The position numbers and the translations under genes were made by a program. The notes below the pieces were generated by a model. The model was not told the origin of the DNA and did not search any database. It worked only from the letters and a program-made list of their open reading frames with translations. This document shows positions 19,357-64,000 of a stretch of 64,000 bases of DNA, one piece after another; the first letter of the stretch is position 1; every line of letters begins with the position of its first letter. Source of the stretch: Dudresnaya verticillata (taxonomy: Eukaryota); assembly GCA_977862235.1 (NCBI GenBank), contig OZ374557.1, forward strand, positions 2,418,001-2,482,000, given 5' to 3'.

Positions 19357-19464
19357 TTATACAATCATAGATCTGCTGAAACGTAGCGGACGATTAGCGG
19401 CAACGTCAGACGACGGGTTGTCGGACGTCACGCGACGGTACAACTCGTTGTAGCGTAGAGCCAT

Positions 19465-19481
19465 TCTAGGTCGGGAGACCA
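19465..19481 (-). promoter_or_regulatory. Primer binding site TGGTCTCCCGACCTAGA (likely tRNA-Tyr)
   Basis: 2 nt inside the 5' LTR, begins TGG; identical 17-mer at 39025-39041 and 53075-53091. Confidence 0.85.
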
Positions 19482-28132: not shown

Positions 28133-30422
28133 ATGGCACAGTTCAATGGACTGCAAATGGCTGCGCCTTCGGCGGCGTCGGTGTATCCGTCACCATTCGA
28201 CTTTGTCGGGAGCACTCCCCGCAACGATGCGCTATTATTCTCGCGCCCCCCCTGGTTCTACCAGAAGGCCCTGCGGCACGAGGACCTCATCACCCATTAC
28301 GCTGTGAGCGGATTTTTGCCAGGGGAGTTACCCCTGGCCGTCGTGTGGACGAACGAGTGGCGCCATCGGTGCGCCATTCCGAGAGGCTGGCTACGTATTG
28401 CAGCCGGGCAGACGCGTGCAGATGCGCATGCGCGTTTCGTCGTCGACGTATATCGGCGGTCTACCCGTTATCCGGGGTCGGTATTGACGCCCACCGTCTT
28501 TGAATGTGACGCAGGGCAGTACCGCACCAATGGTGAGGTTGGGTATGGGGACCGTCTTGGAAAGTTATCACTAAGCCATGCGGCTGTTTCGGCTGAGCCG
28601 CGGGTGCTTCAGGAGGCTAACCGCCTTGGCGTACGCTTGAAAGCGGATTTCCGATACCTCCATAGGACGGGCACCTTCTTTTGGGAGCGCTGCGTCCGTT
28701 GGGAGTGCGAAACGCGCCGCCGCAAAGGCGCTTTCGTGCCGTACCAAGATACGCAAGTTGATCGCATTGAGCGGGAAAGCTGTCGCATTGCTTCATCCGT
28801 GTCCCGCCGTTGTGGCGGGACTTCGAAGTCTGCGAGGGTTTTGCGGCTGAATTGTCTCCTTGCGTCACGTATATTGGTTCCGAGTTGCGGACGGATCCGT
28901 ACTCCCGATGTTGGATCGTATTCTTCACCGAGTGGGTTGTGAACGTCACTTACGCATGGATGTAGGGTAGGTGTATGACACCCTCCGTCTCTATTACGTG
29001 CCACCACACGTGATCAGCCTCCTTGGCGGGCTGGACCTGGCCGAAGCGCTGGGTGGTGCCAAGAATTGCCAGGAGTTGTGGGATTTACGCCATGGGGCGG
29101 ATAACGTCAACTGGGACGATCAGACTGCTATGCCGCCGAAAAACAGACGCCGTAAGGCAAACTGTCCGCGTTACGCGATGAGTAGAAACCATTCCGCCGG
29201 TGGCGATTGGGTGTGGTACAACCCATGGACCAAACGTCTTACGACGGAGAACATCGCTGAGAGTCATTGTCGTACGAAGCGCTTCACGCCAGCGAACAAC
29301 CCACGCGGGTTGCGCAAGAATTGCGACTTCGCGGGTGATTTCCCGCCGCACTTGAGCGCCTTGATGGCGGAGGAGGATGCGTTCCACGCTAACAGCGGAC
29401 CGATTAACCCGTCTGAGACGGACGTCATTACGCCTATGGCGGTTGGGACTACTGCGGGGCAATAGCCCCTACGACGACTTTAGTCGTAGGACCGGCGCTT
29501 GTTGTGATTGTTGGCTTGCCGTCGGTTGCGCCGTTGGATCCCTCGGCGCCCGTCAATGACGGTGATGGTGATGCCATCATGGCTGCGCCAGTGGCGAACT
29601 CTGCGTCTGCAGTTACGCCTCAAGGCGGCATTTCTAACGTCGCTGACGGTGCGTATAGCCCTCCTGCAGTGCCCGAATGGACTGGGGAGCAGCGCCGCAC
29701 GGTGCTCGCATTCCTGCGAGCAACCGGTTTCGTCACTGACGGGGTGGGCGGGACATCGACGACGCCCCTTGGGCACTCGCTCCTGGCTGCTTTGCAGCCC
29801 GGCGTGGCCGTAGTGCCAGCGTCGACCGTCGTTGCGACCGTGCCGTCTAATGACGAAGTTGCGGCGACTAATGACGAAGTGGCGAAAGAGCCGGTGTCGC
29901 CTAAGGCGGGGTGTGCGGGTTCGTCCGCCATTGCGTCTGCTGACGGTATTAACAAAGACGAGTACGATGACAGTGCCTACGGCGGCTCCGCAGGCTACAG
30001 TAGCCTCTTCGTCCGTGACGGATATTGATCGTTCAACGCCTTTGGCGGTTAATGGGGTCCCGTCACCGGAGGTGCCGGGGCCGTCGACTTCGCCCAAGGC
30101 GGTTGAGGATGCTCCGCCTCGAAAGGCAACGGAGCTTCCTTGTGTAGCGCCTACGGTGGATAATGATTCTAACTCTGCGGCTGTGGAGGTTGACAAAGAT
30201 TCGTCGCCTAAGGCGGGGAGTGAGCCAAGCTCCTCACCAGCGGCGGATGTCGCGGCTTCGACAGCGGTGGTTGTGGCGGGCCCCTTGCGGTCTGTCCCTG
30301 CACCCACTGCGAGCGCATCGTTGGTGACGGAAGACAATCTATACGAAGAGGCGTTAAGAGAATCCGCCAATGGCGTCGGGGATGATGCCCCATCTGAGCC
30401 GTCTGCGACGAAAAAGCCGTAG
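28133..30422 (+). pseudogene. E4 antisense accessory ORF (type B), frameshifted
   Basis: MAQFNGLQMAAPSAAS...SEPSATKKP*, collinear with the intact 59165-61471 copy; split over four ORFs. Confidence 0.9.
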
Positions 30423-31613
30423 CGTTGTCGGATCGTTAAGAACGGTTGACAAACCCGAGAGCGCGTGTGATGTCGCTTTGCCTGCCCCGAAGCGGGTTGA
30501 TGAGCGAGGGATTCATACGTCTCGCGACGTAGGTCGTAGTGAGAAGTTATACGGGCACGGGGGTTACCCCCGCTTGTGAAGCCCTAATAAACTTGACCGT
30601 TGTTAAACGTAATTACTTATAGTCCCACTTGGTGTAGAGCGCTGCGATAGCGAGAAGTGTGTAGCCGACGGGTTGCGTTTGTGGCATCGTTGTTGTTTCG
30701 GTTCGCTGTAGTAGCGCTTGCATAACTGCTTGGGGTGGTTTTGCCTTGGCGGCGCCCTCCTTCTTGTTGCCGCTACAGTAGCGTAGGCCCTTTTTGGGGG
30801 AGCCCATGTTCTTCAGTTGACTTAGTCGTTTGTTCACATCGTGATTCCGCTTGTTAAGCGAGTATGTCGTTAGGAATCCGTTTCTCGGTTGGCTTTTCGT
30901 CTTTGACGTAGGAATTGTTGGGTTGGAGTCGGGGGCGCTTGGGTTTGCGTTGCCCCGCGTGCTGGGCGCGTCTCCTGCGACTCCTGGGCGCGGTTGCCAC
31001 GCCCAGCGGCGGAATCATTTTTGCGACTAGCGCGTCGTGCACGAAACGTAGCCTAACTCCGTCTTAGACGACTGGTTCTTCTCTCGTGTTTGCGGGCGAC
31101 CCCTTTTCAGAGTTGAAACACGTCGTTGACGTCCACGGGCGTTGGCCTTGGAGCGCTTGCGAGTGCCGACCGTAAGGGTGGTGAGTTTCGGACTTGGACG
31201 TGGGTGTGGGAGACGGTCTGTTGCGTCCGGGCTTGCGTTTTCCTCGTGGGCGCTCGTAGTGCCGGGGCACACAAACTTGTCGGATCTTCTTTTGTTGGGC
31301 ACCGCCTGGCTGGCGGCGCCTTCGCGTTATTATTTTCACATTAAAATTTTCCATTTCGTTTGTTACCCGATTTCGTGTGGTGCGTGCGCCCTCCACGGCT
31401 TCTGACTACTGTCAGCCGTCCTGTACTTACGGACCCCCTCCGAAGAGGGTTGCCTATTCGCGTGTCGCCAACCCAACCGTCCCTGACGCGGTAGATTACA
31501 GCATCCTTCGTCCGTAACAAGTGCACGTCCGCGTCAACATGGATGGGGGTGTGGCGTGTACTGTCGCCGAATTAGACTGCCCCGTTCGCTTCCAGCGTTC
31601 ACCCTGACTAGGG

Positions 31614-34600
31614 TTACCCGCGCTGCGCGTCGTCGATGTTTGGCGGCAGGCGCGTGTGCTTCTGATGATGATATCGCCCGACGTATGATCGCGGTAGACT
31701 GGAGATTGGCTCCCAGGTATTCGATGAGGCGGGGTATCCAAACCACTTGACGCAGTAGAGGATCTCCCCGTCTTCTGCGTGTGCGTGCGACTCAACCCGT
31801 TCGATGACGTACTCCTTCGCGCTTGCAGCAGTCGACGGGGACTCCTGCCGTTCTAGCGCCTCTGGCGGTTCATTTCGTTGCGTGATGGGCGTCTGCACCG
31901 GTTCTGCAAACCGTACTCGACGAGTCGATCGTCTAAGGCGCTGGGTCGGTGCCCCGAGCGCTTCCGTAGCGGATTGTGGTTCGTCGCTTTTGCGTCCTGG
32001 TTCCACGCTTGCAGCGGTGTCCTTCGCGTTAGCACGGCCTTCCTCATCGTCAGTCGATGTGCTCGAAGCGGGACCTACATTGGTAGCAGGCGAAGCCGAG
32101 GTTGCGTGTCCCATTCGCGTACGGATGCCCGGACCCTCCTCCTCGTCGGAGACAGATTGCGAGGCCCCGTCGTCGGGGTTGGGGGCGAAGGGCGAGCGCT
32201 CTGCCAACCCGCGACTTCGCGGAGTTGCATTCATTTGCTCCTGCGAGTCTTCCGCGCTTCGCGATGTCCCTGTGCCTCCTGCCGGGTCCGTCTGTGGCGT
32301 GTCTGGGGTTCCTGCTCCTTCGTCGGTTGGCCTGGGGGCAGTTTGCCCCTGGACGTCAGGTGGTCCCAGTGGTTGCACGGTTGCGGGGGCGGCGTGCCCT
32401 GGTGGGGTTGGCGCCCATACCACGCGGTCCCGGGATAAACGCTCGCGTTCTACGCGTCCCTTGTCGACGGTGACTGTATCGTCGTTGGCTTGAGCGACTC
32501 GATACGGTCCATCCGCCACAGGCGCGAGCTTGTGCTTGCGTTCTGCTCGATCGGTGCTCCCGCCGCGGGCGAATTATTCCTTCCGCACGAATGCGAAGTC
32601 ACCCACAGCGATTTTCTCCTTCGATTTCCTCAGGCGAGTATCTAAGTTCCGTTTGTAACGCGCCTGCGCTTTCTAGAGCGACGCTTTAGCGGTTCACATC
32701 AATGTTGTAAGCCAAGTGCGCCACTTGGTGTAGCACTGGCCGGCGGTGGGCACGCTTTCAAGCGACGGCTCCGCTTCCAGCGACAATGGCCGCGGGGGCT
32801 TGGATAGTACCAGTTCGAACGGAGCGAGGTGTGCAGACGAATGAAGTTGCGTATTGTTCGCGAACGTCAAAGCGTCGGTGAACAAATCCCGGTCCCTTGG
32901 GTGGGCTGCTACGTATTGACGCAGTGAGGCGAGGATGGTTCGATTGAATCGTTCCACCTGGCCGTTACACTGCGGATGATACGTAGTGGTGAAGAGATTC
33001 TCCACCCTAGGATGCGGCAGACGTCCTGGAACAACTTTGATACAAATTGGGCCCATTGTCGGACAGCAACTTCTTGGGTGGGCCATACACAAACACCCAG
33101 TGTCTAAGAAACGCCTTAGCGATTTCCAATGCCATAATATTACGTAAGGGAACCGTCCGGAACAGCTTCGAGGAGCGGTCCACAATGACGAGTAGGAACT
33201 TATTCCCCCGCTTAGTACTTATGGGCTCCTCGAGTATATCGATGGACACAAACTGGAGGGCTCGGTTGCTGGGAGCAGTTTCATCTCCTTCACGTTCTTT
33301 CGCCTCAGTACCCGGTTCTTCGCGCAAGTAACGCAATTGAGGACGGTCACGTAACAATCCACCAACATAGACGGCCAATAATATTCGCGTCGAAGCGTAT
33401 GGTACAGCTTCCGCCCCCCGGGATGTACTGCTAATTTAGCGTGATGCCGGAGGTGGGGCAGTCGAACGCGTAACGCGGATGGTGCAACGACTTGAGGTCG
33501 GGCCTCGACGGTCCGAACCAATAATCCCTGTTCATCCGTTGCAAACCGTAGGGCGTCTCCGTCGTCTAGACGTTTCCGGATCTCAGAACAGTACTAGTCA
33601 TTGCCCTGGGCATGCACCAACTCTTCATGCATCAATTGACGGAGGAGTACTTCATTCGCCAGTGGCGCGTTGGTAACCAACATCTAGTCAAACTCCTCGA
33701 ACTCTCGTTCAGAGAGATCGACCTCGCCCTTGGCGTTTTGACATATCCCTTTCTGCGTGAGCGTAGCCGCCCTCTGGCGAGTGATCCTCGTCCTTGACGC
33801 AACTTCCGTGGTAACACGGGATATCATCGTCAATTGGTTCGACGGTTTCGCCGTTCGTCTGTAGACGTGAGAGGGCATCTGCCTGAGTATTCAGGTATCC
33901 CTTTTTATACTTCACGACGAAGTCGAATTCAGAGAGACGAAGGCGCCATCTCATTAACCGTCCCGAAGGGTCGCTGATTTCCATCAGCCACCTCAGCGCC
34001 GAATGGTCCGTATGGACTACGAAGGACTCCATCTGAAGGTACGGTCTCAACGTTGTGATCGACCAAACTTTTGCGAGGCATTCCTTTTCGGATACCGAAT
34101 AGTTGCGCTCCGGAGCGGTTAACGAGCCTGACCAGAATCCAAGCGGCTCCCGTTCACCGTCAGACTGCGTTTGGAAGAGTGCGCAGCCGACTTGGTATTC
34201 ACTTGCGTCACAATCGACGGAGTACGGTAGTCCCTGCTGTGGAAACGACAGGATTGGCGGGTGAGTAACCGCTTCGACAAACGTGCTAAATGCCTGGGCT
34301 TGCCCCTCGGTGAACGGTTGTAACCGGAAGTCTTGCTCTTTCCTCAAATTTTGGTGAGGGGAGCGGCGACATGCGCGTATCGCGATACAAACCGTCTCTA
34401 GACGTTGCACAATCCGAGAAAGCTCCATAATTCCTTCTGGTCCCACGGATGCTTGGCTTCGAGTAACGCGGAGGTGACCATGCGGTCTACTTCCAATCGT
34501 CCCAGACGTATCACATGGCCTAGATAGTTGACGGTCGGGGTGAAGAAGTCGCACTTGGTTACCTTCAGTGTCACTCCGGCCCGATACAAGGTCGAAAGGA

Positions 34601-36349
34601 TCTCGTCCACGTGACGGAAGTGACTGTCGATATCGTTAGAGAAAATTATCACATCGTCAAGGTAGACGAGGCATGAGCGCCACTTGTAACCAGCAAGCAA
34701 GATATCGAGGGTGCGTTGGAACGTGGCCGGTGCGTTAGTAAGCCCGAAGTGCATACGCTTATAGCGGAACAACCCGGCATGGCACGCGAACGCAGTCTTT
34801 TCGCGATCCCGCGGGTTGATGGGCACCTGCTAGTAACCACTATTGCAGTCTAGGGTAGTGGAGACGTTAGCTTCCCCTAGACTGTCAATACATTCGTCGA
34901 TTCGCGGGAGGGGGTACCTATCTCGTACCGTCACAGCGTTCAAGCGACGGTAGTCAACGCAGAAGCGGAGCGTACCGTCCTTCTTGGGAGTAAAGACGAC
35001 CGGTGACACCCATGGCGATTGTGCTGGTTAGATAACCCCGTTACGCAACATGCGATAAACCTCCACTTGAGCGAGTTGCCTTTGCTTTGGGCCAGCGCGG
35101 TAGGGCGGGGATGAAATCGGCCTGGACCCGGGGAGCAAGTCAATATAGTGCTCCGTGGTTGCGATTTCTCCTAATGAACCGTCCCAAATTGACGCGTACC
35201 TGCGCAGCATCTCCTTCATCCGTTCTTGCCGTTCGGCTGAGAGATGAATCAGGTCCAACTCGTCCACTGACGGGGGTTTAGCTACAGTTGCTTCGATCGA
35301 CTTAGCCATTGTATCCGGCTTTGCCGTTACTCCATCATTCGTTTGAAAACGGAAATCTTGATTCGACTCTTCCTCCGCTGCTTGCTCCTGGGTGATACCT
35401 AGGACATCGGCTAGACTTATGTGACTGGGGAACACTGCTGTGGGATGTGGAAACGCAGTAGCGACAACTTGTCCTTTGACGAGCGCTTGCGGACGCGGAG
35501 AAACGTTTGCGACGAGAATCCGGAACGCTCTCAGCGGCTCTACTTGAGCGACCCCGTTAGTAACGGCCAAAGCTTGCTGATCATATAACGTTCCAAACGG
35601 CTGGATGGTAATGACATCTGCTCGCTCGGTCGTTACCGAGATCCACTTTTGCGCCTGTGGCGGGATGATTGTTCGTTCCGCAACGCGTATCTTGGGCGAC
35701 ATTCGCCCTCCGGCCGTGCCGTACTTTTGTTCCGTTGGCAACGGGGGTACGACGGGTGCCGGCGCGGCGGGTGGCGCGTTATAGGGACGCGGGTCCCGTC
35801 GTCCAACTCAATCTCGCGACTTCGCGGATAAATCGCTTCGACAAAGCGGTCGCAAAAGTCGCAACCGAGTATAACCGGCGCAGCGAGCCGTTCACAGACG
35901 ATCAACTCTAACTTGACAACCCTCCGTCCGAGACGTACGACTAAGTCGATAGTGCCCCGGGTTTGAATCGCCTTGTTGTTAACGTCTGGTATGACGGGAA
36001 GACTCTTGGATACGATCCGTGGTCGAGAATCTAGCGGAATGTCGTCAATGCGAATGAAATTCGGACCAGCCCCCGTGCCGAGGACAGTACGTTTCCGTCC
36101 CAAGGTACCTAAAGTTACGCCCAGGTCGGCTTATACCTTGTAGTTCCTTTTGGCCATTACCAACAACTGTCCCCGGGCCTGTGGGGGCTGGTACCTACGC
36201 CACGGGCGCTGCAAGGACGTCTGTGACGAGTCTACCCGCCTATGGGCGTGTTTGTTAGCTACGTTCGGGCCCTCCTTCCGTGTCAGCACCCGAGGCGGAA
36301 GCCTCTCTGCGTGGTGCGACAACCCAGTGTCAGGAGTTGGTACCCTCAA
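31614..36349 (-). pseudogene. pol: E4 pol: protease, RT, RNase H, integrase, chromodomain
   Basis: VLGTGAGPNFI (DTG mutated), LVYLDDVIIFS, VDCDASEYQVG, HPGG..CVTC, LLSDNGP, YHPQCNGQVERFN, YVIERVESH..YCVKWFGY..NTWEP. Confidence 0.93.
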
Positions 36350-38916
36350 TGGTTTTTCTCCTGCGGCGGTTGTAGCGGCGCTGTATAGCTATTGATCACC
36401 GTCGGATGACGTCCTGCTGCATGCAGCATAGGCCCGCCCCGTGGCGATGGTGGACGCGCCGAACGATGTGATGCTTCGCGCAAGGCGTGTTCCGTGTACC
36501 GAGTGTACGCATCAGCGGGGACACCCGCCTTCTCAGCGTCTGTTAAGCCTTCGTAGTTGGCGATTGCTTTCATATACTCGCTCATGCGGAGGAAGCAGTC
36601 CGGTGCGATGTGCCCACGGGCATAACACTGGTGACAGATCAACTGTCTGCGAGCGTCTAGACGGAACGGACCCCTGTCTTCCCAATCTGGCCTTGCCCGA
36701 TGGACATTGTGGGCATACGCCGAGTACGGAACGCGTGGCGCGGGCACAACGGAACGCCCAAAGGCGAGTGTAGGGTCCATTGCCCCGGTGTCCTCGTCTT
36801 CGACGTAGCTGTCCGTTGGTAACGCTGATGTTGGCACTGAAGCTTGTTCGTAGGCCAAGTAGAGATGTCCATCTGCGTGTGTTTCCATATCGTCCGCATG
36901 ACGGGTGACATCACGGAACTCAACGGAAGACTCCGCTATCATAGCGCGTGCGGCAGGCTTCGCGCCCCTTGTCTGTTGACGTAGAACCGTTCGTTTGTCG
37001 CCAATGTCGGGGCGCAATACGCGAGCGGCTTGGGCCGGGGCCATTATATCCCGTCGTACTGGCGTCGAACCGGCCCTGCCGTGTCTTGCGCGTTGCGCGT
37101 CGCCTTCATCTTGTGCGAAGTGGACTAAACGTTCAAGAGATAACTCCGCCCTCGGCGCTTCTTCGCGGAAGCGGGCCACTAAAGACCTGATCGTCGGGTC
37201 TAACCCATCGATGTACAGTGTCATCTTTCCCATTCGGGATAAACGTTACCGCAACTAGTACATGCGCCGGCGAGTTTCATGCCGTAAGTCGTTTCGTCTT
37301 GGCCCTGATTCTGACTAGTCGACCGCAGGGCGAGGACAGCGTCTAAAATCGCCGAAGGCGTGGCGTACGTGCGGAGAAGGTAGTGTACCGCCTCCGGGTA
37401 CGACGATACGCCCCCGCGGTGCCGTGAGGACGTCGATTTGACGGAGCGGAATTGCGTGGCTGCCGTACCTCGTAAGAAGTACGGCAGTGCGACGAACGCT
37501 TGTGCTTCGCTCATCTCTAGCATGTCCGCTTCATCCGCGAACCGCGTTAAAAATTCGAGAACCATGACGGGGTCGCTGCCGTTGAAGGCGGCGTCCTTCA
37601 TTGTTAACTCGAGTCGCTTGATATGGTCTTTGACCTTCCCGGTTTCGCGTCCAGATCGTTTCTGTCCCACGTCTTGAAGACGGTAGGTTCGATACGATAG
37701 TAACTGATCGAAGAGGGGGTGGGAGGGGCTCAGCTCCTTCAACCTCTTTTAACGCTTTCCGCGGGGCCACATGGCACTGCGGTGAGCGATGCGGTCATCG
37801 TCATCGGACGACGCGTCGGTCGACCCATCGTCACTAGACGTATCCGAGGAGGATGAGGAGGAGTCCCCTCGTCTGTGACGGTTCTTCTTCCGTCCATGAC
37901 GTGGCTTGCGGCGATTCTTGTTTCGCCTTTTCCGCTCCTTGCGTCGGTGACGATCTTCTGCGGAACTATCGTCGTCAGACTGCGGCCCTTGTCGCCATTT
38001 GGCGGTTTCCAGTCGCTCCAAGCGGGTTGCTAATCGCTGAAAGCGTTCACGTGAACTCAGTTCTGACTGAGAGCGGACCATCAAAGTGGACCGTCAATGC
38101 CGCTGGCTGCGGGGCATTTACTCCGTGGTTTGGGTTCGTCATCAGACGGTCGAGGTCGGAACGGAGTCCTTGAAGGGCACCGTCCCGATCTTCTTCCAAC
38201 GTCTGCAGACCTCGGAAGATACCTCCGAAATTGTCGTCTAACATCTCCGCGAATCGAGCGAGTAAGTTACCGTCTTCAGCGACGCATACTTCCCAAATCC
38301 GCTCCCAAGGTATTGTGAGATTACCAACACGGGCGGATGCTGGGGATGCCACTGGCGGTGTGCGCGCGGGGGTCGGCGCATGAGGCGGACCCCCCGTGCT
38401 GCGCTGTTGCGCTAACGGCCTGGCCGGTGAACATCCGACACTGCCGTGGGGTGAGGGGCAGCAGCCCCTCGGGATTTGTGTTTCGTCTACGACGTTGCGC
38501 CCCGCAGGGCGTTCTTGGTCGTCGTCGACGGGTAAGGTTGGTTGGTGGACCGGAACTTCCGGTTATTCCTCGACGATGTCGGCTTGGGCTCCGTCCTCGA
38601 CGGGCCGCTGTTCGGCTCGGACCATGTCAGCGGAATCCACGTGCGAGTGATAGGTTTGGAGGGCCGATTCGTTGGGAACGGTGGTACGGATGACGACGGG
38701 TATCGGCGGGGGAGGTACTTCTACCCTGTTGAGCGATACATGGGAGTGATTGTGGCCAGGACCGGTCGGAAAGGCCGATTCGATCTCAGAGCTCACGAGG
38801 CGCCCAGACCTCGTTGTCATCCGCTGTAGCGAGCGTTCCGACGCGGGGACACTCCCCGGCGTCGATGACGGTCTTCTTGAACTTGGGCCTCGCGACGGCG
38901 GCGGTCGTGAGGCCAT
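36346..38916 (-). pseudogene. gag: E4 gag with CCHC zinc knuckle
   Basis: Starts about 110 nt after the PBS; basic and Ser-rich tract; FNGSDPVMVLEFL..YLLRTYAT; CHQCYARGHIAPDC; several frameshifts. Confidence 0.85.
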
Positions 38917-39958
38917 AATGCAGTCGTAGAGTTGCTTGAACGTCGTGGACGATTAGCGACGGATGTCTGAAGACGGAAAGTCGGACGTCGCACGACGGAG
39001 TAACTCGTTGAAACTCAGCACACCTCTAGGTCGGGAGACCAGTTGCGGTGCAAACGTCCTAGACGGAACGCTGCCGAGCAGTTCGGGGCTCGGTGGGTAG
39101 CGACGCCTTTGGCGGTGAGTAGCCTCGCCTTGGGCGGCTTGTGGTAGAGCAGTTCACACGCCTTGGGCGGACTGTAAACGCCCGAGGCGGAAAGGAAGAA
39201 CAAAGGAGAACAAAAAGGAAACACGTCAAGGACGGTGATGGACGTGGAAGCACGGGAGGTAGACGCTTAGGCCGTAGGCAGCGGTAGGGTACGCGCGTGT
39301 GGAATGGGGAAGTCTGGACCAAGCCCGGCTTACCGGGAGTTTACCTCAACGTCTGGGACGGATCAACTAAGTATAGAACTACCTAGTGGCGGCGACGCGT
39401 GCATACGCGCCGCGAGGGAACTCGGGACGCGTGTTGTCCCGAGCTGCGTCTGACATATCCGTCCGTCATGCAGCCACGCTCCTGACAGATCATGCGTAGC
39501 TGCCCTGCTCGAGTCCTTACGCATACACGTGGATGTACTTCCTTGCAGCCGCGCGCGCCTCATGATGCGTGCGATCTCGATCCGCACTAATCCCGATCCG
39601 ATCCGGATTCGGGCCAGCCATGCGGATGCGCCAGGCTTATAGGCGCGTGCCTTACACCTCTTAATCCGCATGTCTGATCTTGATGTGGGACCTCGATTGG
39701 ATCCGGATCCGGGCCACGCTTACAGCGGACGTTCCCGCCACTGCGCCATGCGCGCACGCGTGGCGCCGTACAGTGTTCCGGGTTCGGGCGTGCGGTCCGC
39801 ACGCCAAACGGGCCGTTCTGCCCTGGGCGGCCAGGGGCATGCGTCGGTGACGTGTTTGCGCCGTTGGCGGGTTGTACGCGCCGTTGGCGGTCGCCCGTCG
39901 GTAGACGCGGAATATCAACTCGCTTGCAAGCGGAAAAGAGGACCCCCCTGGCACTACA

Positions 39959-41450: not shown

Positions 41451-42224
41451 TGTAGTATCTCTAAACGCACCACCGAATGCGACGCCAGGATGAGACCCCA
41501 AAGGACCAGGAAGATCGGTCGGATTTCGTAGCAAACGGCCGAACGTAGAACGGACCTGCGCGCCGGTAGCAAGCGTGGTAGAGCGGGAGCGCACAGACGA
41601 AGTCGCGGCCAAGATCCTGGATGAGCAGTGGAAAATGGCCGAGTTGGGGAAAAGGTTGCAAAACTTTACTTCCAACCTCTGGCGGGACGACTTCGTACCT
41701 ATTCTGGCCGAGTCGTGGTTTGTGGCTGTCTAAGTAGGCCCAAAATCGGCCACTAGAGCTAATCTAGAGCTATTCTACAGTTAGTGGCCGAGGTTACTCC
41801 CCGTCGGCCATAATATCTACTTGTGTTCCGGCGTCGGGCCAATGTTGTACCCTTACCAGACTAAACCAAGTACTTGTTCGTTAGTGGTTGGCCAAATGAG
41901 TTAGATTTTCCCTTAATTTTTCCGCTGTCTTCTGCTTGATTCACCTGCGGCCAAATCCAATTTCCTTTCCGCACTTGCTTCCAGATCCGATCACACCGAT
42001 CATACGTGTACAGCGAGCCACGTGATGCGCTTGGGTGTCGTAGGTGGCCACGTGTGACACACGTGTACACTTGTTGGACACGTGTGCCTCTTGCGCATGT
42101 TCACCGGCGTCCGCTCGGCCGCACTGTCGTCGGTTGGCCAAACGTATCTTTCTGATTGGGCTGCCTGTCCCACTTGGCCCGGCCGGTTGCACCCGTTTTG
42201 GAGGCCCCTTGGCGTTGCAACACA
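41451..42224 (-). repeat. Probable 3' LTR of another element (family F)
   Basis: Begins TGTAGTA exactly where LTR-A homology stops; carries TGGTAGAGCG; ends ...GCAACACA followed by PPT-complement aagcccccttc. Confidence 0.6.
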
Positions 42225-42435
42225 AAGCCCCCTTCGCAAGCGCGGACCCCCGGCCGCGAGGTCGGATCACGGCTATATCAAGACGGGAGCCGCGTCGTCT
42301 GGCACCCTCATCTCCGGCCATCACCCTCAGCACGCGCACCTTAACTGCGCACGCTTGCACCCTACGGCCGACTGCGCTCCTTACTCTTAACCTCCCCCAC
42401 CTTCTCCGACGCCACGCCTTGGCCATCGCGTAGCG

Positions 42436-44319
42436 ATGACTACCGGTCCGGCCAAACAGCGCGCGCGTCGCGCTCCCTCTACTCGCCGTGCGAAGAAGAC
42501 TCCGCCCCCACGAGTTATCTCTTCGGACTCTTCAAGCGGGGATGACACGGCCGACCAAATGAAGAAGGCTCCGCCATCAATGGCTGACTTGCGGAAGGCT
42601 GTTGCATCGTCGTCCAAGAGTGCGCCGGCCAAGGTTACAGTGCCGTCATCATCCAAGAATTCGGCCGCGACTCAAGTAAAGAAGGTAGTGGCTGAATCAA
42701 GTAAGGAGCCGGCCGACACTGAAGAGTTGCAGAAGGTTCTGGCCAACTACCGCGAGCGTCGGGCGGCCGAAGACAAGGAAATCTTGGAACTACAGAGTCG
42801 TTCGGCCGTGTTGGAAGAAGCGAAGAAGACCAATGAGAAGACGTCGGCCGATGCAGTGTTACTTTCGTCATCATCTCCGACACCCCCTCCCGTTTCCAAG
42901 TCGAGGCCGATGAAGTTGGCCATATCTGCTCTTCCACCGTCACCGAAGGTGGCGGCGGCGTCTTCTTCGGCCGGCATCAAAAGTCTCCCACTTGCGCCGT
43001 CACTGTCTTCGCCCTCGATGCGCACAGCCGCGGCCGACACTGTAGCAGGAGTGTCATCCGCTCCTATAGTCTTGGCCGCCAACAAGCAGGCCAGTAAGAC
43101 GGCAGTTCGCCCTTCAACCGTTACCGCTATTGCGCCGCCGGCCCCGCTTTCAACTTCGGCCAAACAATCTACCCCGTGTGCCAGTGTTGGAACTGATGGC
43201 AACGCTAAAACGGCTGAGACGGCTCTCGATAAGTCGGCCGATGGGAAGAAGGCGGATCGTGCTGAGACGGCCAACCCAGAAGACTTGGCCGTATTGCGTG
43301 AAGCCATGGATGTAGTGGCCGAGAGAGAGAAGGCGCGTGCTTTAGCAGGCGTTGCTGTTCCACGACGGCCGACTGCTGAGAAGGCCACCGATAATCCCAC
43401 GGCACATCGTTTGGCGCCTCGCTTGCGGTCATCTCCCTCGCCCTTCATGCCTACTCGTCAATCCGGCCCAGGCTTAAAGCCCTCTTCGTCACGTAGCCCA
43501 CCATCGAAGAAGCTGCGAGTGGCCGAAGAAGAGAAGACAGCGGCCGTTAAGAAGGTACCTCCTCCTTCAAGGAGCGAAGTGATCGACGTTGATACGGACA
43601 CTCCTGTGCCACCGGCCAGGTTGATGAGTGATGGCGACCAGCGGCGCTTCGTTAGTCAGCTACCTGACTTAGAAGATCTCCCTCGGCTGAAGGATGAAGG
43701 GGAAGTTGCTCCAGCTCCCGCTCCGGCTCCTCAAACATCTTCGCCGGCCGTTCCAGCTCCCACGCCAGACCCCAGAGAGTCTGCACTTATTCCGCGTGAG
43801 GACGTAGTGGACGCCACGGCCGCTAGTCGGGAAGTTCGTCGGCCGTCCGCATCATCTGCTCGTCGAACTCGTGGCCATTCCGTTCCGATTTCTACACCGG
43901 CCAATTATTCTCCCCTGCCGCAGGATTTCGACCCTACTAGACACACTCAGACGGCGTCACATCGGCCGGCTCACATCCCACCGGGGACTGAAGATCGCGA
44001 TGGCCCAGAGGTGCGACTGGACGCGAGTTTGCCCGATATGTCCATATGGCCCAAGTTTCCGAGAGTTGACATCAACTACACGGAGCTGGTGGCTACTTCG
44101 CCGAAACTGGATATGGTTCGTCTTCGTGAGAGTCCCGATAACTTGGCCGACAATTGGCGCCAGTTCCGTTCTTCGCGCGCTGGCGGCCACTTATATTGGG
44201 TGCCATGGGAGATTGGATACAACCGCGCCTTCCTACTTAACATAGGCGACGTCTTGTTGGTCCATCAAGCTTGCCCTAGGAGAATCATACCGGGAATTAC
44301 ACGGGTAATTAGCGGGTAA
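42436..44319 (+). CDS. Probable antisense accessory ORF (type C); long Pro/Ala/Ser/Lys region, domain cut at about 44273
   Basis: 627-aa open frame about 210 bp from the LTR/PPT, same placement as the other accessory ORFs; ends with HLYWVPWEIGY. Confidence 0.6.
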   Translation: MTTGPAKQRARRAPSTRRAKKTPPPRVISSDSSSGDDTADQMKKAPPSMADLRKAVASSSKSAPAKVTVPSSSKNSAATQVKKVVAESSKEPADTEELQKVLANYRERRAAEDKEILELQSRSAVLEEAKKTNEKTSADAVLLSSSSPTPPPVSKSRPMKLAISALPPSPKVAAASSSAGIKSLPLAPSLSSPSMRTAAADTVAGVSSAPIVLAANKQASKTAVRPSTVTAIAPPAPLSTSAKQSTPCASVGTDGNAKTAETALDKSADGKKADRAETANPEDLAVLREAMDVVAEREKARALAGVAVPRRPTAEKATDNPTAHRLAPRLRSSPSPFMPTRQSGPGLKPSSSRSPPSKKLRVAEEEKTAAVKKVPPPSRSEVIDVDTDTPVPPARLMSDGDQRRFVSQLPDLEDLPRLKDEGEVAPAPAPAPQTSSPAVPAPTPDPRESALIPREDVVDATAASREVRRPSASSARRTRGHSVPISTPANYSPLPQDFDPTRHTQTASHRPAHIPPGTEDRDGPEVRLDASLPDMSIWPKFPRVDINYTELVATSPKLDMVRLRESPDNLADNWRQFRSSRAGGHLYWVPWEIGYNRAFLLNIGDVLLVHQACPRRIIPGITRVISG

Positions 44320-45700
44320 TCGGACACCTACCGGCTACCCGTTGAACACCCGCCATTTGCCGCCAAATTTGACACCGCTTAGCGCGCCGCATTGCCGCAT
44401 TAGAGAATGTTTCAAACCCCGGTTTATATTTGAGACAGCGGGAATTCGAAATTGGGCGACACATCATTGCATCTTGTTCGCACACTTGGATACTCCGGAT
44501 ACGCTGATCTTCAAGTTTATGACAAATATTTCTCGATGACCCTGCCGCGCGTGACACTTCATCCACGTCGGCGCCGTGACGCAGAAGGGTCACAACGCAG
44601 TCTTGCGATGAGACCGACAGCACCCCTCCCGCTCACCGCCGCCCGTTCACCGTCCACCCGCTCATCACCCCCACACTCACCGCCCCCACGCTCACCGCGC
44701 CCCGCTCACCGTCCCCGATTCCAAGACGCCCAACTCTTCTAGCGATCCGAACTCCAGCTCGGCTAGCAGCCCGAACGCCCTCGCCTCCGCAAGTCCAAGC
44801 ACGCATGCGTCGCGCGCTCTTCCCTCTCTATCAGCTCCGCTAGCTCCAATACGTATATCAGAGCCTGCTCCTCCAGTTACAGCTGCACAATCTTCAGCGG
44901 CACCAGCTCCGCTAGCCGCAGTTCCATCCCCTCCGACCGCGCTGAAAGTTCTACCCGCTCTTCCATTCCCAGGTCGACCAGTGCCAGCTCGTCTTGCACC
45001 AAACCTGCGTGTTCAACCTGCGTCCGCGACACCTGCGCCAGCTTCGCCTCTAGCCGCAGTAGTCTCGTCCACTTCTGCAACATCGATACTGAACCAGAAG
45101 GCCATACCACGATGCCGTCGGCCACCAAACGTGCCAATCATGAATCCGAAGATCATGGGGGTAGTACCGGCGTGCCATGAGGGACAGCCGCAGCGCAGGT
45201 CACGGCCGTGAGGATGAGTTCCGCACTGTGCCTGGGGCGAGTTCTAAACCCTGGAGCGGAACCACAGGGGCTGAAGGGGTGACACATAATGTAGACTCGG
45301 AAGACACAGTAGGTATGTGAACCGTCGAGTCACGAGTAGTGGCGCCATGATCGATGAATCTGGTGAGGGTGCCAACAGATACTTCACGGCAAGCTTGTTC
45401 GGGACTAGACTCAGCATCTTCTTCCGTTTCATGGTCTTCAAGTCCGTCCCTACTAGAGAAGTGGAAAATTGTCGCTCGTGGGTCAGTAAATCGAGGACCC
45501 CATCTAAAAGAGCCCCTTCCCATTTCTTGTCGTCTTTGATTAGCGCGGCGTCGATGGTTCAGCATCGTCGAGCGAGATACCGGTTTCCCACCGCATACGC
45601 ATTCGAACCATGGCGGACATGCGTATCGAGGCGGTGGCATTCCGTTCCAGTTTTGGATCGTCAAAATGACCACGCGGTACTCGAGGGCGTCTCGATGCAA
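44274..45700. mobile_element. Possible DNA transposon end (CACTA/EnSpm-like)
   Basis: CCCTAGG start, subterminal CGGG(T/A)A(A)TT repeats, CCGCTCACCG array, ORF with CPPWFECVC..VSRSTMLNH; no second TIR found. Confidence 0.3.
44628..44716. repeat. Degenerate minisatellite of about 15 bp (CCGCTCACCG core, about 6 copies)
   Basis: Direct reading of the sequence. Confidence 0.8.
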
Positions 45701-50815: not shown

Positions 50816-50842
50816 GTTGTTGTTGTTGTTGTTGTTGTTGTT
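50816..50842. repeat. (GTT)9 microsatellite
   Basis: Direct reading; immediately upstream of the ATG at 50815. Confidence 0.95.
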
Positions 50843-57799: not shown

Positions 57800-59164
57800 G
57801 TGTACGCATTGCCAGCCCATACGTGTAGTGCAAACGTCTGTGACGGAACACCGCCGAGCAGTTCGGGGCTCGGTGGGTAGCGACGCCCGTGGCGATGAGT
57901 AACCTCGCCTTGGGCGACTGCTGGTAGAGCGGTTGACTCACCTTGGGCGGACTGTAAACGCCCGAGGCGGAAAGGAAGAACAAAAGAGAACAGAAAGGGA
58001 ACACGTCAAGGACGGGTAGAGACGTGGAAGCACGGGAGGTAGACGCTTAGCCGTAGGCAGCGGTAGGGTACGCGCGTACTGAACGGGGAAGTCTGGACCA
58101 AGGCCGGCTTGCCGGGGTTTACTGTGACGTCTGAGACGGATCAACTAAGTATAGAATTACCTAGCGCGGCGACGCGTGCGTAGGCACCGCGCGGGGACTC
58201 GGGACACGTGTTGTCCCGAGGCGCGTCTGACAGATCCGCCCGTCATGCAGCCACGCTCCCGATAGATCGCGCGTAGCTCCCCGGTCGAGTCCTTACACCT
58301 GCACGTGGATTACTTCCTTACAGCCGCATGCGCCTCATGGCGCGTGCGATCTCGATTCGCGCCAATCCCGATCCAGTCCGGATTCGGGCCAGCCATGCGA
58401 TGCGGGTGCGCCAAGCTTACAGGCGCGGGCCTTACACTTCCTAATCCCGATGTCGGATCCCGATGTGGGATCCCGCTTGGATCCGGATTCGGGCCACGCT
58501 TACAGCGAACGTTCCTGCCACTGCGCCACGCGCGTACGCGTGGCGCCGTACAGTGCCCCGGGTTCAGGCGTGCGGTCTGCACGCCAAACGAGCCGTTCTG
58601 GCCCGAGTGGCCAGCGGTATGCGTCGGTGACGTGTTTGCGCCGCGGGCGGGTTGAGCGCGCCGTTGGCGGTCGTCCGTCGGTAGACGCTACATATCAACT
58701 CGCTTGAAAGCGAAAATGGGGGACCCCCCTGGCACTACACGACCCCCTCCGAAAACGCGAACACGTCCATTTGCTTCAGCCTGCCCGCCCACCTGCGTCC
58801 GCGTCGTCTTCCAGTGCCGATCGTGTTGGTCGCCCGCATTTGCCCGCCCTTGGCGTTGGTTGAGCCCCGTCAAAGACGCACGTGCAGTTTCCCCCGCCCT
58901 TGGCGTAGGAACAATTCCCGTCGAAGACATGTCGTTGACCAACTTCGCCAGTGGCGTGCGTGAAACCCCGTCGTTGACGTCGTATCTGTGCACGCGTGTG
59001 TACGCTTATCGCCTAGGGCGTTGTTTAGTCCAGCGTCGTTGACGTGTGTTTTTGTGTGCTTCCGCCCTTGGCGTAGTTGACGCGACTTCGGAGTCCCAGA
59101 ACCGTCGTTGACGTATCATGCGAACTCCGCCAGTGGCGTGTGATTACTCAACGTCGCAGACGTA

Positions 59165-61471
59165 ATGGCACAGTTCAATGGCCTACGAGTGGCTGCGCCT
59201 TCGGCGGCGCCAATGTATCCGTCACCATTCGACTTTGTCGGGAGGACTCCTCGCAACAATGCGCGCTTATTCTCGCGAGCCCCCTGGTTCGACCAGGAGG
59301 CTCTGCGACACGAGGAACTCATCACCCATTACGCTGTGAGAGGATTGTTGCCAGGGGAGTTGCCCCTGGCCGTCGTGTGGACGAACGAGTGGCGCCATCG
59401 GTGCGCCATTCCGAGAGGTTGGCTGCGTATTGCCGCCGGTCAGACGCGTGCAGATGCGCATGCGCGTTTCGTCGTTGACGTGTATCGGCGGTTTACCCGT
59501 TATCCCGGGTCGGTATTGACGCCCACCGTCTTTGAATTTGACGCAGGGCAGTACCGCACAAATGGCGAGGTTGGGTATGGGGACCGTCTTGGGACGTTGT
59601 CATTAAGCTATGTGGCTGTTTCGGCTGAACCGCGGGTGCTTCAGGAGGCTAACCTCCTTGGTGTACGCTTGAAAGCGGATTTCCGATACTTACATAGGAC
59701 GGGCACCTTCTATTGGGAGCGCTGCGTCCGTTGGGAGTGCGAAATGCGCCGCCGCAAAGGCGTTTTTGTGCCGTATCAAGATACGCAAGTCGATCGCATT
59801 GAGCGGGAAAAGTTGCCGCATTGCTTCATTCGTGTCCCGCCGTTGTGGCGGGACTTTGAGGTCTGCGAGGGCTTTGCGGCTGAATTGCCTCCGTGTGTCA
59901 CGTATATTGGCTCCGAGTTGCGGACGGATCCGTACTCCCGATGTTGGATCGTGTTTTTCACCGAGTGGGTCGTCAACGTAACTTACGCATGGATGTGGGA
60001 GGTGTATGACACCTTCCGGCTCTATTATGTGCCGCCACGCGTAGTCAGTCTCCATGGCGGGCTTGACTTGACTGAAGTGCTGGGCGGTGCCAGGAACTGC
60101 CAAGAGTTCTGGGATCTACGCCATGTGGCGGATAACGTCAACTGGGACGACCCGGCTGCTGTGCCGTCGGGAAACAGGCGCCGTAAGGCAAACCGTCCGC
60201 GTTACGCGATGAGTAGAAATCATTCCGCCTGTGGCGATTGGGTGTGGTACAACCCGTGGACCAAACGTCTTACGACGGAGAACATCGCTGAGAGTCATCG
60301 TCGTACGGACCGCTTCACGCCAGCGAATCACCCACGTGGGTTGCGCAAGAATTGCGACTTTGCGGGGGATTTCCCACCCCACTTAAGCGCCTTGATGGCG
60401 GAGGAGGATGCGTTTCACGCTAACAGCGGACCGGTTAACCCGTCTGGGACGGACGTCGTTACGCCTATGGCGGTTGAGCTTACTGCAGGGGCGTCAGCTC
60501 CCGCGACGATTTCGCCAGCGGCGGTAGGACCGTCGGCTGTGGTGCCTGTTGGCTTGCCGTCGGTTGCGCCGTTGGACCTCTCGGCGCCCGTCGAGGACGG
60601 TGATGGTGATGCCATTATGGCTGCGCCCGTGGCGAGTTCTGCGTCTGCAATTACGCCTCAAGGCGGCTTATCTAACGTCGTTGACGGTGCGAATCGCCCT
60701 CCTGCAGTGCCAGAATGGACTGAGGAGCAGCGCCGCACGGTGCTCGCGTTCTTGCGAGCCACCGGTGTCGTCACTGACGGGTCGGGTGGGTCATCCACGA
60801 CGCCCCTTGGGCACTCGCTGCTGGCTGCTCTGCAGCCCAGCGTTGCTGCGGTTCCGGTGTCGAGCGTCGTTGTGACTGTGCCGTCTAACGACGAAGGTGC
60901 GGCGTCTAATGACGGAGTGGCGAAAAAGCCTTTGTCGCCTAAGGCGGGTTGTGCGGGTTCGTCCGCCATTGCGTCCTCTGACGTTGTTGACAAAAGTCCG
61001 CCAAAGGCGAGTGCGGTGGCAGCACCTACGGCGGCTCCGCAGGCTCCAGTGGTCTCTTCGTCGGTGACGGATGTTGATCGTTCAACGCCTTTGGCGGTTA
61101 ATGCGGTCCCGTCACCGGAGGTACCGGGGCCGTCGACTTCGCCCAAGGCGTTTGAGGATGCTCCGCCGCCAAAGGCGAGTGAGCTTCCTGGTGTAGCACC
61201 TGAGGCAGATAATGATTCTAACGTTGCGCCTATGGCGGTTGACGAACAGTCGTCGCCTAAGGCGGATTGTGAGCCAGATGCGGCGCCAGCGGCGGATGTC
61301 GCGACTTCGACAGCAGTGGTTGTGGCGGGTCCCTTGCGATCCGTCCCTGCCCCTGCTGCGAGCGCACCGTCGGTGACGGAAGACGACCTCTACGAAGAGG
61401 CGTTAAGAGAATCCGCTAATGGCGTCGGGGATGATGCCCCATCTGGGCCGTCTGCGACGGAAAAGCCGTAG
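59165..61471 (+). CDS. Intact 768-aa antisense accessory protein of E6 (unknown N-terminal domain + Pro/Ala/Ser-rich tail)
   Basis: Longest open frame in the window, ATG to TAG; homologous copies in E2 and E4. Confidence 0.88.
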   Translation: MAQFNGLRVAAPSAAPMYPSPFDFVGRTPRNNARLFSRAPWFDQEALRHEELITHYAVRGLLPGELPLAVVWTNEWRHRCAIPRGWLRIAAGQTRADAHARFVVDVYRRFTRYPGSVLTPTVFEFDAGQYRTNGEVGYGDRLGTLSLSYVAVSAEPRVLQEANLLGVRLKADFRYLHRTGTFYWERCVRWECEMRRRKGVFVPYQDTQVDRIEREKLPHCFIRVPPLWRDFEVCEGFAAELPPCVTYIGSELRTDPYSRCWIVFFTEWVVNVTYAWMWEVYDTFRLYYVPPRVVSLHGGLDLTEVLGGARNCQEFWDLRHVADNVNWDDPAAVPSGNRRRKANRPRYAMSRNHSACGDWVWYNPWTKRLTTENIAESHRRTDRFTPANHPRGLRKNCDFAGDFPPHLSALMAEEDAFHANSGPVNPSGTDVVTPMAVELTAGASAPATISPAAVGPSAVVPVGLPSVAPLDLSAPVEDGDGDAIMAAPVASSASAITPQGGLSNVVDGANRPPAVPEWTEEQRRTVLAFLRATGVVTDGSGGSSTTPLGHSLLAALQPSVAAVPVSSVVVTVPSNDEGAASNDGVAKKPLSPKAGCAGSSAIASSDVVDKSPPKASAVAAPTAAPQAPVVSSSVTDVDRSTPLAVNAVPSPEVPGPSTSPKAFEDAPPPKASELPGVAPEADNDSNVAPMAVDEQSSPKADCEPDAAPAADVATSTAVVVAGPLRSVPAPAASAPSVTEDDLYEEALRESANGVGDDAPSGPSATEKP

Positions 61472-62680: not shown

Positions 62681-64000
62681 TTATCCGCGTTGCGCGTCGT
62701 CGATGTTTGGCGGCAGACGCGTGTGCTTCTGACGGTGATACCGCACGACGTGCGATCGCGGTAGACTGGAAACAGGTTCCCAGGTATTCGCTGACGCGGG
62801 GTATCCAAACCACTTGACGCGGTAGAGGATCTCGCCGTCTTCCGCGTGTGCGGGCGACTCAACCCGTTCGATAATGTACTCCTTCTCGCTTGCAGCGGTT
62901 GGCGTGGGCTCCTGCCGTTCTAACGCCTTGGGCGGCTCACTTCGTTGCGTGATGGGCGTCTGCACCGGTTCGGCAAATCGTACTCGACGAGTCGATCGCC
63001 TGAGGCGCTGGGTCGGTGCCCCGAGCGCCTGCGTAGCGGTTTGTGGTTCGTCGCTTTTGCGTACTGGTTACTTGCTTCTAGCGGCGTCTTTCGCGTTAGC
63101 GAGGTCTTCCTCATCGTCAGTCGATGCGCTCGAAGCGGGACCTACCTTGGTAGCCGGCGAAGCCGAGGTTGCGTGTCCCATTCGCGTACGGATGCCGGGA
63201 CCCTCCTCCTCGTCGGAGACGGATTGCGATACACCGTCGTCGGGGTTAGCGGCAAAGGGCGAGAGCTCTGCTAACCCGCGACTTCGCGGCGTTGCATTCA
63301 TTTGCTCCTGCGAGTCTTCCGTGCTTCGCGGTGTCCCTGTGCCTCCTGCCGGGTCCGCCCGTGGCGTTTCTGGGGTTCCTGCTCCTTCGTCGGTTGACGT
63401 GGGGGCCGCGGGCCCCGGTACGTGAGGTGGTCCCGGCGGTTGCACGGTTGCGGGGGTGGTGTGCCCTGGTGGGGTTGGCGCCCATACCACGCGGTCCCTG
63501 GATACACGTTCGCGTTCTCCACGTCCCTTGTCGATGGTGACTGTCCCGTCTTCGACGTGAGTTACTCGATACGGTCCATCCGCCACCGGTGCGAGCTTGT
63601 GCTTGCGCTCTGAGCGATCGGTGCTCCCGCCGCGGGCGAAGTATTCCTTCCGCACGAATGCGAAGTCGCCCACAGCGATGTTCTCCTTCGATTTCCTCAG
63701 ACGAGTATCGAAGTTCCGTTTGTAACGCGCCTGCGTTTTCGCGAGCGACGCGTTAGCGGTCCCCATCAATGCGGACAGCCAGGATCGCCATTTGGTGTAG
63801 TACTGTCCGGCAGTGGGCACGCTTTCAAGCGACGGCTCCGCTTCCAGCGACAACGGCCGCGGGGGCTTAGATAACACCAGTTCGAATGGAGCGAGGTGGG
63901 TAGACGAGTGCAGTTGCGTATTGTACGCGAACGTCAAGGCATCGGTGAACAGATTCCAGTCCCTGGGGTGTTCTGCTACGTAGTGACGCAGGGAGGCGAG
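62681..64000 (-). pseudogene. pol: E6 pol C-terminus: integrase + chromodomain, frameshift near 63070
   Basis: TFAYNTQLHSSTHLAPFEL, KLAPVADGPY, YIIERVES..YRVKWFGY..NTWEP. Confidence 0.9.

What the first reader, a model, noticed from the sequence alone, without database searches (positions are those of the whole stretch)
59165..61471. Conserved antisense accessory gene carried by multiple Gypsy lineages: candidate undescribed protein family
Seen: six elements have a large ORF starting about 0.1-0.6 kb inside the 3' LTR and running opposite to the element (E1 10237-13015, E2 16786-18352, E3 20920-23609, E4 28133-30422, F 42436-44319, E6 59165-61471). Types A and B show no obvious DNA similarity but align by eye in order: YRCHGEVGY/YRTNGEVGY; APSWWESYEV/VPPLWRDFEV; MPSVVAYFSADL/LPPCVTYIGSEL; WHIFRSE..VLFSW/WIVFFTE..VTYAW; MYLLPVTLIAL/LYYVPPRVVSL. 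No env-like TM segment or enzyme motif recognised. Known: some plant Gypsy elements (Grande, RIRE2, Retand) carry antisense ORFs, and VANDAL DNA transposons encode VANC anti-silencing proteins. Inference: an old, selected TE accessory factor (anti-silencing, chromatin or nucleic-acid binding) driven from an antisense promoter in the 3' LTR.
Basis: partly seen in the sequence, partly recalled or inferred. Interest (0 to 1): 0.88.

Follow-up and report, generated by a model that had tools for sequence, protein, structure and literature searches.

The report
Retrotransposon accessory gene with family-specific palindromes
Several jumping elements in what is likely a red seaweed carry, backwards behind their main genes, a conserved extra gene of a protein family with no match in the libraries searched, and each element lineage is studded with its own short palindromic DNA word, which this protein likely binds and so would keep its own family switched on.

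Summary
The gene is real. E6 (59165-61471) is an intact 768-aa ORF, antisense, between a Gypsy chromodomain and the 3' LTR; its first 420 codons are under purifying selection like integrase (dN/dS 0.18-0.21). A profile search gave 155 relatives; the only taxon shown is the red alga Gracilariopsis chorda (1 of 20 clusters looked up). Types A and B are one family (hhalign 99.75%, E 2e-27, outside sequences only), with no Pfam or PDB match. F is not a detectable member. The ATGs lie outside the LTR; only E6 is unbroken. New: each lineage is studded with its own CpG palindrome. Type B has CGCC-N3-GGCG and CGTC-N3-GACG (70 and 72 sites against 3 and 2 by chance), type A has CCG-N3-CGG, F has CGGCCG. 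Type-B arms are conserved and enriched even in coding DNA. This resembles VANDAL/VANC. Best reading (0.42): the protein binds its family's palindrome and counters silencing. Binding, expression and fold are untested, and relatives' genomic context is unseen. This scan noted antisense genes in this slot in fungal Gypsy elements before (a different protein).

The parts
59165..61471 (+). E6 antisense accessory ORF, 768 aa, the only unbroken copy (type B)
   Evidence: opposite to chromodomain/integrase
59165..60424 (+). Conserved W/Y/R-rich domain (aa 1-420). Residues kept in both clades: D126, R131, E135, Y138, E191, R195, R197, P225, W228, E232, P242, Y247, E267
   Evidence: dN/dS 0.21 and 0.18; 155 relatives; conservation
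60425..61471 (+). A/P/S-rich acidic tail; weakly constrained as protein, densely loaded with palindromes as DNA (18 sites); holds half of a short helical element seen in many B-like relatives (about aa 521-535)
   Evidence: dN/dS 0.62; 18 sites against 3.75 in synonymous shuffles
58740..59164 (+). Purine tract (minus strand, 58740-58750) and spacer between LTR and ATG, with 11 mostly alternating CGCC- and CGTC-type sites (25.9 per kb); candidate antisense promoter (inferred)
57824..58739 (-). E6 3' LTR, 916 nt, TGTAGTG...CACTACA, 9 palindrome sites, all 9 shared with the E4 5' LTR
62684..64000 (-). E6 integrase C-terminus and chromodomain (element runs off the window)
27490..39958 (-). E4, type-B element: 5' LTR, gag, broken pol with chromodomain, broken antisense gene 28133-30422 (+), truncated 3' LTR; 61 perfect sites
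15353..20361 (-). E2, type-B element with both LTRs (91% alike), TSD CGTCT, no pol, broken antisense gene from 16786 (+); 21 perfect sites
10237..13015 (-). E1 antisense gene, type A (open for 536 codons, frame break near aa 477); pol on + at about 6500-10158; LTR starts 13249; element rich in CCG-N3-CGG (34 against 5.3)
20920..23609 (+). E3 antisense gene, type A, several breaks; chromodomain/RNase H on minus at 24151-25800; CCG-N3-CGG 21 against 3.6
41451..45210 (+). F: LTR-like stretch 41451-42224, purine tract, ORF 42436-44319; not a detectable family member, but studded with its own palindrome CGGCCG (21 of the window's 40)

Best explanation
These chromodomain-bearing Gypsy elements carry a conserved antisense gene and are studded with a lineage-specific CpG palindrome; the protein likely binds that palindrome in double-stranded DNA, probably as a dimer, and would thereby shield or switch on only its own family, as VANC does for VANDAL transposons. 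Shown: the gene, its selection, the A/B homology, the 155 relatives, and the enrichment, lineage specificity and (type B) conservation of the palindromes. Inferred: transcription from the motif-rich spacer or 3' LTR; DNA binding by the 420-aa domain; co-evolution of domain and motif (B: CGCC/CGTC-N3; A: CCG-N3-CGG); an anti-silencing or activating effect; the tail serving partly as a stretch of DNA sites that is translated as a linker.
For: Selection at integrase level: dN/dS 0.21 and 0.18 against 0.24 for integrase; E1/E3 dN 0.52, dS 2.05. An unbiased gapped-palindrome scan of 13 regions put the same motifs on top in all 3 B elements (p 1e-7 to 3e-31) and a different one on top in both A elements (p 9e-17, 4e-10), with nothing comparable in host DNA. 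Window counts 70 and 72 against 3.0 and 2.2; 134 of these 142 lie in E2, E4 and E6. Arms are conserved while the 3-nt spacer is not: LTR arms 0/72 changed, spacer 8/27, other 102/811; whole stretch 24/355 or 5/252 against 13%. Sites exceed synonymous shuffles in coding DNA (E6 tail 18 vs 3.75, domain 3 vs 0.15, integrase part 4 vs 0.30), and are densest in spacer, tail and LTR. They are dispersed, not one recent tandem array. For DNA rather than hairpin reading: stems are not extended (fifth position paired 1 of 65 against 16.6 expected, 11 of 69 against 18.2; copies not independent), A sites mix unequal half-sites such as CCGT-N-TCGG, and CGGCCG has no loop. The domain is 10-12% Arg, with Arg, Glu and aromatic residues kept across clades. 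Precedent: VANC21 and VANC6 each bind two related short motifs piled up in their own family (PMC5735166, passages).
Against: No binding, expression or fold is shown: both AlphaFold models failed on shallow alignments (pLDDT 29 and 35), and no DNA-binding domain was recognised. The motif-protein link rests on two lineages in one window, and gag and pol differ between those lineages too. F has its own motif without a detectable family member. Mixed CGCC/GACG sites are at chance level (5 against 5.2) and five other self-complementary variants are raised (10-20 each), which a simple dimer with independent half-sites does not explain. Motif-rich stretches fold as RNA better than shuffles (z -2.9 and -3.1). 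Type-A arms are not measurably conserved between E1 and E3 (p 0.05-1.0; 0 shared sites in the gene core, 4 of 4 in the integrase tail). VANC targets are non-palindromic, non-coding and tandem. How the host silences elements is unknown here; CpG is not depleted (o/e 0.9-1.5).
Confidence: 0.42

Rival explanations
1. The palindromes are read by something else (a host transcription or chromatin factor, or Gag or integrase), and the antisense gene has a separate job; both merely follow the lineage.
For: Only two homologous lineages are compared; F and pol-less LTR/gag relics (39960-41450, 51201-53100) carry motifs with no family gene seen beside them. CCG-N-CGG and CGG-N-CCG layouts recall fungal zinc-cluster sites (recalled, not tested).
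Against: Host DNA in the window lacks the motifs (0 type-B sites in 1-5500); three different words in one nucleus, spread through coding DNA, suit an element-encoded, diverging reader better; the relics are truncated, so a missing gene says little.
Confidence: 0.25
2. The motifs act as small RNA or single-stranded DNA hairpins (4-bp stem, 3-nt loop) and the protein is an RNA-binding helper for export, packaging or reverse transcription, in the manner of Rev or Rex.
For: Self-complementarity is required in type B (209 of 475 CG-NN-N3-NN-CG words are perfect palindromes; mixed sites at chance); some sites form hairpins in predicted folds, z about -3; spacer bases are strand-biased.
Against: Stem extension is avoided and wobble variants are not raised; type-A sites tolerate unequal halves; CGGCCG cannot form a hairpin; palindrome-rich sequence folds well by construction; sites also lie throughout the LTR.
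Confidence: 0.17
3. The domain is an enzyme (invariant Asp, Glu and Arg as an active site) acting on DNA, chromatin or host defence, and the motifs are its substrate or its footprint.
For: D126, R131, E135, E191, R195, E232 and E267 are kept at about 20% identity between clades; all motifs contain CpG.
Against: No enzyme profile or PDB hit; no conserved Cys or His; conserved arms point to selection on sites rather than to a mutational by-product.
Confidence: 0.13
4. The ORF is a captured host gene or a chance antisense frame with no role for the element.
For: 4 of 5 family copies are broken; the genomic context of the outside relatives is unseen.
Against: dN/dS about 0.2 between element copies, lowest in the ORF frame of six; same slot and orientation in two lineages whose RNase H is only 44-53% identical; 4 near-identical members in G. 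chorda.
Confidence: 0.03

Closest known systems
Antisense additional ORFs between pol and 3' LTR (aORF-3R) of plant Gypsy elements: maize Grande gene23, rice RIRE2, Retand TRP28/PF04195 (PMC7264820, PMC11963269; passages read)
   Same: Same slot and orientation, conserved across copies, unknown function, DNA binding proposed; Grande gene23 is transcribed from a promoter upstream of the gene.
   Different: No Pfam match here, so no TRP28 or Smc domain; Retand is a non-chromovirus lineage of flowering plants, while these elements have a chromodomain and likely an algal host; the passages read mention no lineage-specific target motifs.
VANDAL/VANC sequence-specific anti-silencing (PMC5735166; passages read)
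   Same: Element-encoded accessory protein with conserved and variable parts; each family loaded with its own short motif; two related motif types per family.
   Different: VANC is in Mutator-like DNA transposons and has DUF1985/DUF287, not found here; its motifs are non-palindromic, non-coding and in tandem repeats; binding and loss of methylation are shown for VANC and untested here.
brtn of Botrytis Boty and antisense zinc-cluster genes of fungal chromoviruses
   Same: Antisense gene between chromodomain and 3' LTR, proposed to be a DNA-binding regulator.
   Different: Small cysteine-rich proteins; this family has a domain of about 400 aa with no conserved cysteine.
Retroviral antisense and regulatory proteins (HTLV antisense genes, Tat, Rev; as cited in PMC11963269)
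   Same: Accessory regulators, some encoded antisense from the 3' end.
   Different: No sequence likeness found; retroviruses have env, and no env-like gene was seen here.

Membership tests
Ty3/Gypsy LTR retrotransposon with chromodomain | RT-RNase H-integrase order, chromodomain after integrase, LTRs with TG...CA, purine tract, primer site | tested here: met
   (full order in E4; RNase H to chromodomain in E1; chromodomain and 3' LTR in E6)
Named chromovirus clade | Placement on an RT tree with reference elements | not tested
   no reference set on hand
aORF-3R class | ORF antisense between pol and 3' LTR | tested here: met
   E1, E3, E4, E6
aORF-3R class | Conserved under selection across copies | tested here: met
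aORF-3R class | Antisense transcript | not testable with these tools
   no sequencing run was listed, which is no evidence either way
Retand TRP28 proteins | PF04195 domain | tested here: not met
   no Pfam family on E6 or E1 domains at E up to 10 or on the cores of 67 relatives
VANC | DUF1985/DUF287 domains in a Mutator-like element | tested here: not met
   the host element is a Gypsy retrotransposon
VANC (works-like) | Family-specific short motif piled up in the cognate element | tested here: met
VANC (works-like) | Motifs in tandem repeats in non-coding DNA | tested here: inconclusive
   densest in spacer and LTR with roughly 25-nt alternation, but also in coding DNA, and no tandem arrays found apart from one 22-nt pair
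VANC (works-like) | Protein binds the motif and removes silencing marks in trans | not testable with these tools
   needs binding assays and methylomes
env-like ORF | Sense orientation, transmembrane segment | tested here: not met
   antisense; best 19-aa hydropathy 1.8 in E6 lies in the low-complexity tail and 2.0 in E1 in a helix shared by the family; no dedicated membrane predictor was run
Fungal antisense zinc-cluster genes | Six-cysteine cluster | tested here: not met
   no conserved Cys column
HeH/LEM/SAP fold (tail element) | Pfam score above cut-off | tested here: inconclusive
   2 of 9 pieces hit HeH or Ish1 at E 0.15, far below cut-off; the E6 piece did not

The most novel reading that the evidence does not exclude
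Red-algal Gypsy retrotransposons have invented, independently of plant VANDALs, a self-recognition system: a new family of sequence-specific DNA-binding proteins, each paired with a CpG palindrome that its lineage writes all over its own genome, even into coding DNA, so that each family lifts silencing from itself alone. The 155 relatives would be a natural library of protein-motif pairs, and F a second, unrelated invention of the same trick.
Probability: 0.3. Interest if true: 0.93.

Novelty: new variant of a known kind. Interest (0 to 1): 0.8.

Why it matters
What antisense extra genes of LTR retrotransposons do is an open question (PMC7264820, PMC11963269). Here a candidate target sequence can be read off each element, so one binding assay with A and B proteins and swapped motifs can settle it. 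If true, VANC-style family-specific anti-silencing extends to retrotransposons and to another kingdom, with a protein domain that matches nothing in Pfam or the PDB.

Tried and rejected
No genome was held, so all DNA statistics come from one window. Word-index protein searches found nothing; only the full HMMER scan did. DNA of relatives was not found: viral contigs, metagenome contigs, prokaryote genomes. The two loci are chance hits at the end of a prokaryotic RNase HII-like gene with no retroelement nearby (the gene label is my recognition, not a tool's). Sequencing runs: none was listed, no RNA holder listed. The Atlas gave no usable hit for the G. chorda relative, whose model has pLDDT 0.31. 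The two-copy complex job gave no verdict and did not use the alignment. PDB, PHROGs and Rfam gave nothing meaningful. F as a distant member: EIGY, HTW and GGHLYWVPW look-alikes seen by eye did not score (z 1.4 or less; E 0.13); rejected. A cytosine-methyltransferase reading of 'PPC' was rejected because the Cys is not conserved. The bacterial promoter scan is not informative for a eukaryote. Three planned checks were never run: overlap of minor with major palindromes, hairpin probabilities per site, and peptide traces of motifs in relatives' tails. Literature: 10 searches listed no paper on this family or on motif-studded red-algal retrotransposons; the G. chorda genome paper and the 2022 VANC paper were not held, and no supplements were read, so a description there or in repeat databases cannot be excluded.

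Full report
Setting. No genome is held for this window, so DNA evidence comes from these 64 kb. Pfam scans of all 255 stop-to-stop frames of 95 aa or more show a nest of decayed Gypsy elements whose integrase ends in a chromodomain: E1 on plus (RNase H 7713 to chromodomain 10158), E3, E4 and E6 on minus. The host is not given. It is likely a red alga, inferred only from the one named cluster of relatives (below).

The gene. E6 is an open 768-aa ORF. Its 3' LTR is 57824-58739 with a purine tract at its inner edge, and the ATG lies 425 nt further in, so outside the LTR. E4 (85% DNA identity) and E2 (71%) carry broken copies; E1 and E3 carry type A. Codons 1-420 give dN/dS 0.21 (0.14-0.31) for E6/E4 and 0.18 (0.13-0.23) for E6/E2, the lowest of six frames, against 0.24 for integrase; the tail gives 0.62. 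E1/E3 are 46% identical over 392 codons with dN 0.52 and near-saturated dS 2.05.

One family. Within the window A against B is modest and rests mostly on E1, though each type's profile ranks the other type as its best non-self hit in a frameshift-aware scan (52 against a null top of 37; 76.5 against 51). A profile of nine pieces against 1.84 billion representatives gave 155 hits at E up to 0.001, 26 at 1e-10. Of the 150 listed, 33 are A-like, 54 B-like and 63 were left unassigned. Profiles from these outside sequences alone align at 99.75%, E 2e-27, over 228 columns; the A profile finds 51 of 54 B proteins and the B profile 22 of 33 A proteins (similar). The hits were gathered with a mixed profile, which may favour bridging sequences. 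Of 20 clusters looked up, one shows a taxon: four hypothetical proteins of Gracilariopsis chorda; the rest are unnamed or 'hypothetical' records, two short fragments labelled ubiquitin hydrolase. Of 67 relatives scanned, 2 have weak coiled-coil hits in the tail and none has a family on the core; the PDB gives only low-complexity noise. Whether the relatives sit in retroelements was not seen. F is hit by none of the profiles.

The palindromes. Reading the E6 spacer showed two repeated words. CGCC-N3-GGCG occurs 70 times and CGTC-N3-GACG 72 times against 3.0 and 2.2 in shuffles, while mixed sites number 5 against 5.2. 134 of the 142 lie in E2, E4 and E6, 37% of the window. Density is 14-26 per kb in the spacers, 13-17 in the ORF tail, 5-11 in LTRs, 2-5 in the domain, gag and pol, and 0 in the first 5.5 kb of host DNA. 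An unbiased scan over 13 regions recovered these as the top 4-bp-arm palindromes in E4 and E6 and among the top four in E2, and gave CCG-N3-CGG as top 3-bp-arm palindrome in both A elements (34 against 5.3; 21 against 3.6) and CGGCCG in F (21 against 3.0); the best host-region word was GTGCAC, 10 against 2.2. CGGCCG is at chance for the window as a whole (40 against 37), so it is concentrated in F and scarce elsewhere. Between E6 and E4 the arms change less than other DNA and the spacers do not, though the effect is not significant in the domain, UTR or integrase part taken alone, nor between E1 and E3. In coding DNA the sites exceed protein-preserving shuffles in 9 of 9 frames tested, with 0 of 500 shuffles reaching the count in 5 of them. 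Tandem Repeats Finder shows no arrays of them beyond one 22-nt pair.

How it likely works. A selected accessory protein that diverges between lineages, and a selected DNA word that differs between the same lineages, is the pattern of VANDAL/VANC, where each protein binds motifs piled up in its own family and lifts methylation (PMC5735166, passages). I therefore favour a sequence-specific DNA-binding protein, probably dimeric given the symmetry, that protects or activates its family, including its own promoter. Gene, selection, homology and motif pattern are shown; expression, binding, dimer and effect are inferred. The strict self-complementarity of type-B sites and good RNA folding keep a hairpin reading alive, but avoided stem extension, unequal halves in A sites and the loopless F word argue against it. 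Reports of methylation changes in Gracilaria and Gracilariopsis exist (review PMC9861306, passages), but nothing here shows how this host silences elements.

Against what is known. The layout is that of plant aORF-3R genes, function unknown (PMC7264820 and PMC11963269, passages), and of fungal cases noted earlier in this scan (unchecked notes, different proteins). It is not TRP28, VANC, env or a zinc cluster by the tests listed. Passages of PMC13547354 and PMC6338049 showed nothing on this family. Ten full-text searches (listings only, apart from the papers named) and scan look-ups by sequence, words and place listed neither the family nor motif-studded red-algal retrotransposons; subscription papers, supplements and repeat databases were not seen.

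Verdict. Observation partly confirmed (5 of 6 copies; start outside the LTR). A real, apparently unnamed protein family in a known slot, with a new and testable feature. New variant of a known kind; interest 0.80; best mechanism 0.42.

Noticed in passing
window 41451-45210: F has the same layout (LTR-like end, purine tract, ORF 211 nt inside) and its own palindrome CGGCCG (15 in the ORF against 2.4 in synonymous shuffles), none between 43969 and 45202; its protein is not detectably related. Possibly a second accessory family.
   Followed up: partly
window 15353-20361: E2 has both LTRs, primer site, purine tract and a 5-nt target duplication, has lost pol and most of gag, but keeps the accessory domain: a non-autonomous element or a deletion after insertion.
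   Followed up: partly
window 14235-15344, 39960-41450, 51201-54130: Nested LTR and gag relics enriched in CCG-N3-CGG, so likely of the type-A group; the gag relic's primer site TGGTCTCCCGACCTAGA is the same as in E2 and E4.
   Followed up: partly
window 20362-20808: The E3 (type A) LTR remnant resembles type-B LTR sequence (77% over 100 nt) and holds 2 type-B sites; LTRs share GATCCGGAT-like and CCTTACA words across lineages.
   Followed up: no
type-B elements: The base pair just outside CGCC-N3-GGCG is almost never complementary (1 of 65); one side is often C, never both. Minor palindromes CGCT, CGCG, CGAC, CGGC, CGTT-N3 are also raised. Unexplained.
   Followed up: partly
window 55784-56974: Tc5/pogo-like transposase remnant (HTH_Tnp_Tc5 and DDE_1, below cut-off), overlapping a stretch 70% alike to the E1 LTR region.
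   Followed up: no
window 956-1546, 3896-4378, 2119-3111, 45922-47220, 50000-50905: Host-like genes: lipase class 3, an eIF3m/PCI piece, and three ORFs with no Pfam match.
   Followed up: no
tails of B-like relatives (P0004, P0030, P0046 and others): A short two-helix element 'LRxFLRxAGV...LxxLR' recurs after the linker; faint HeH/Ish1 hits only.
   Followed up: partly
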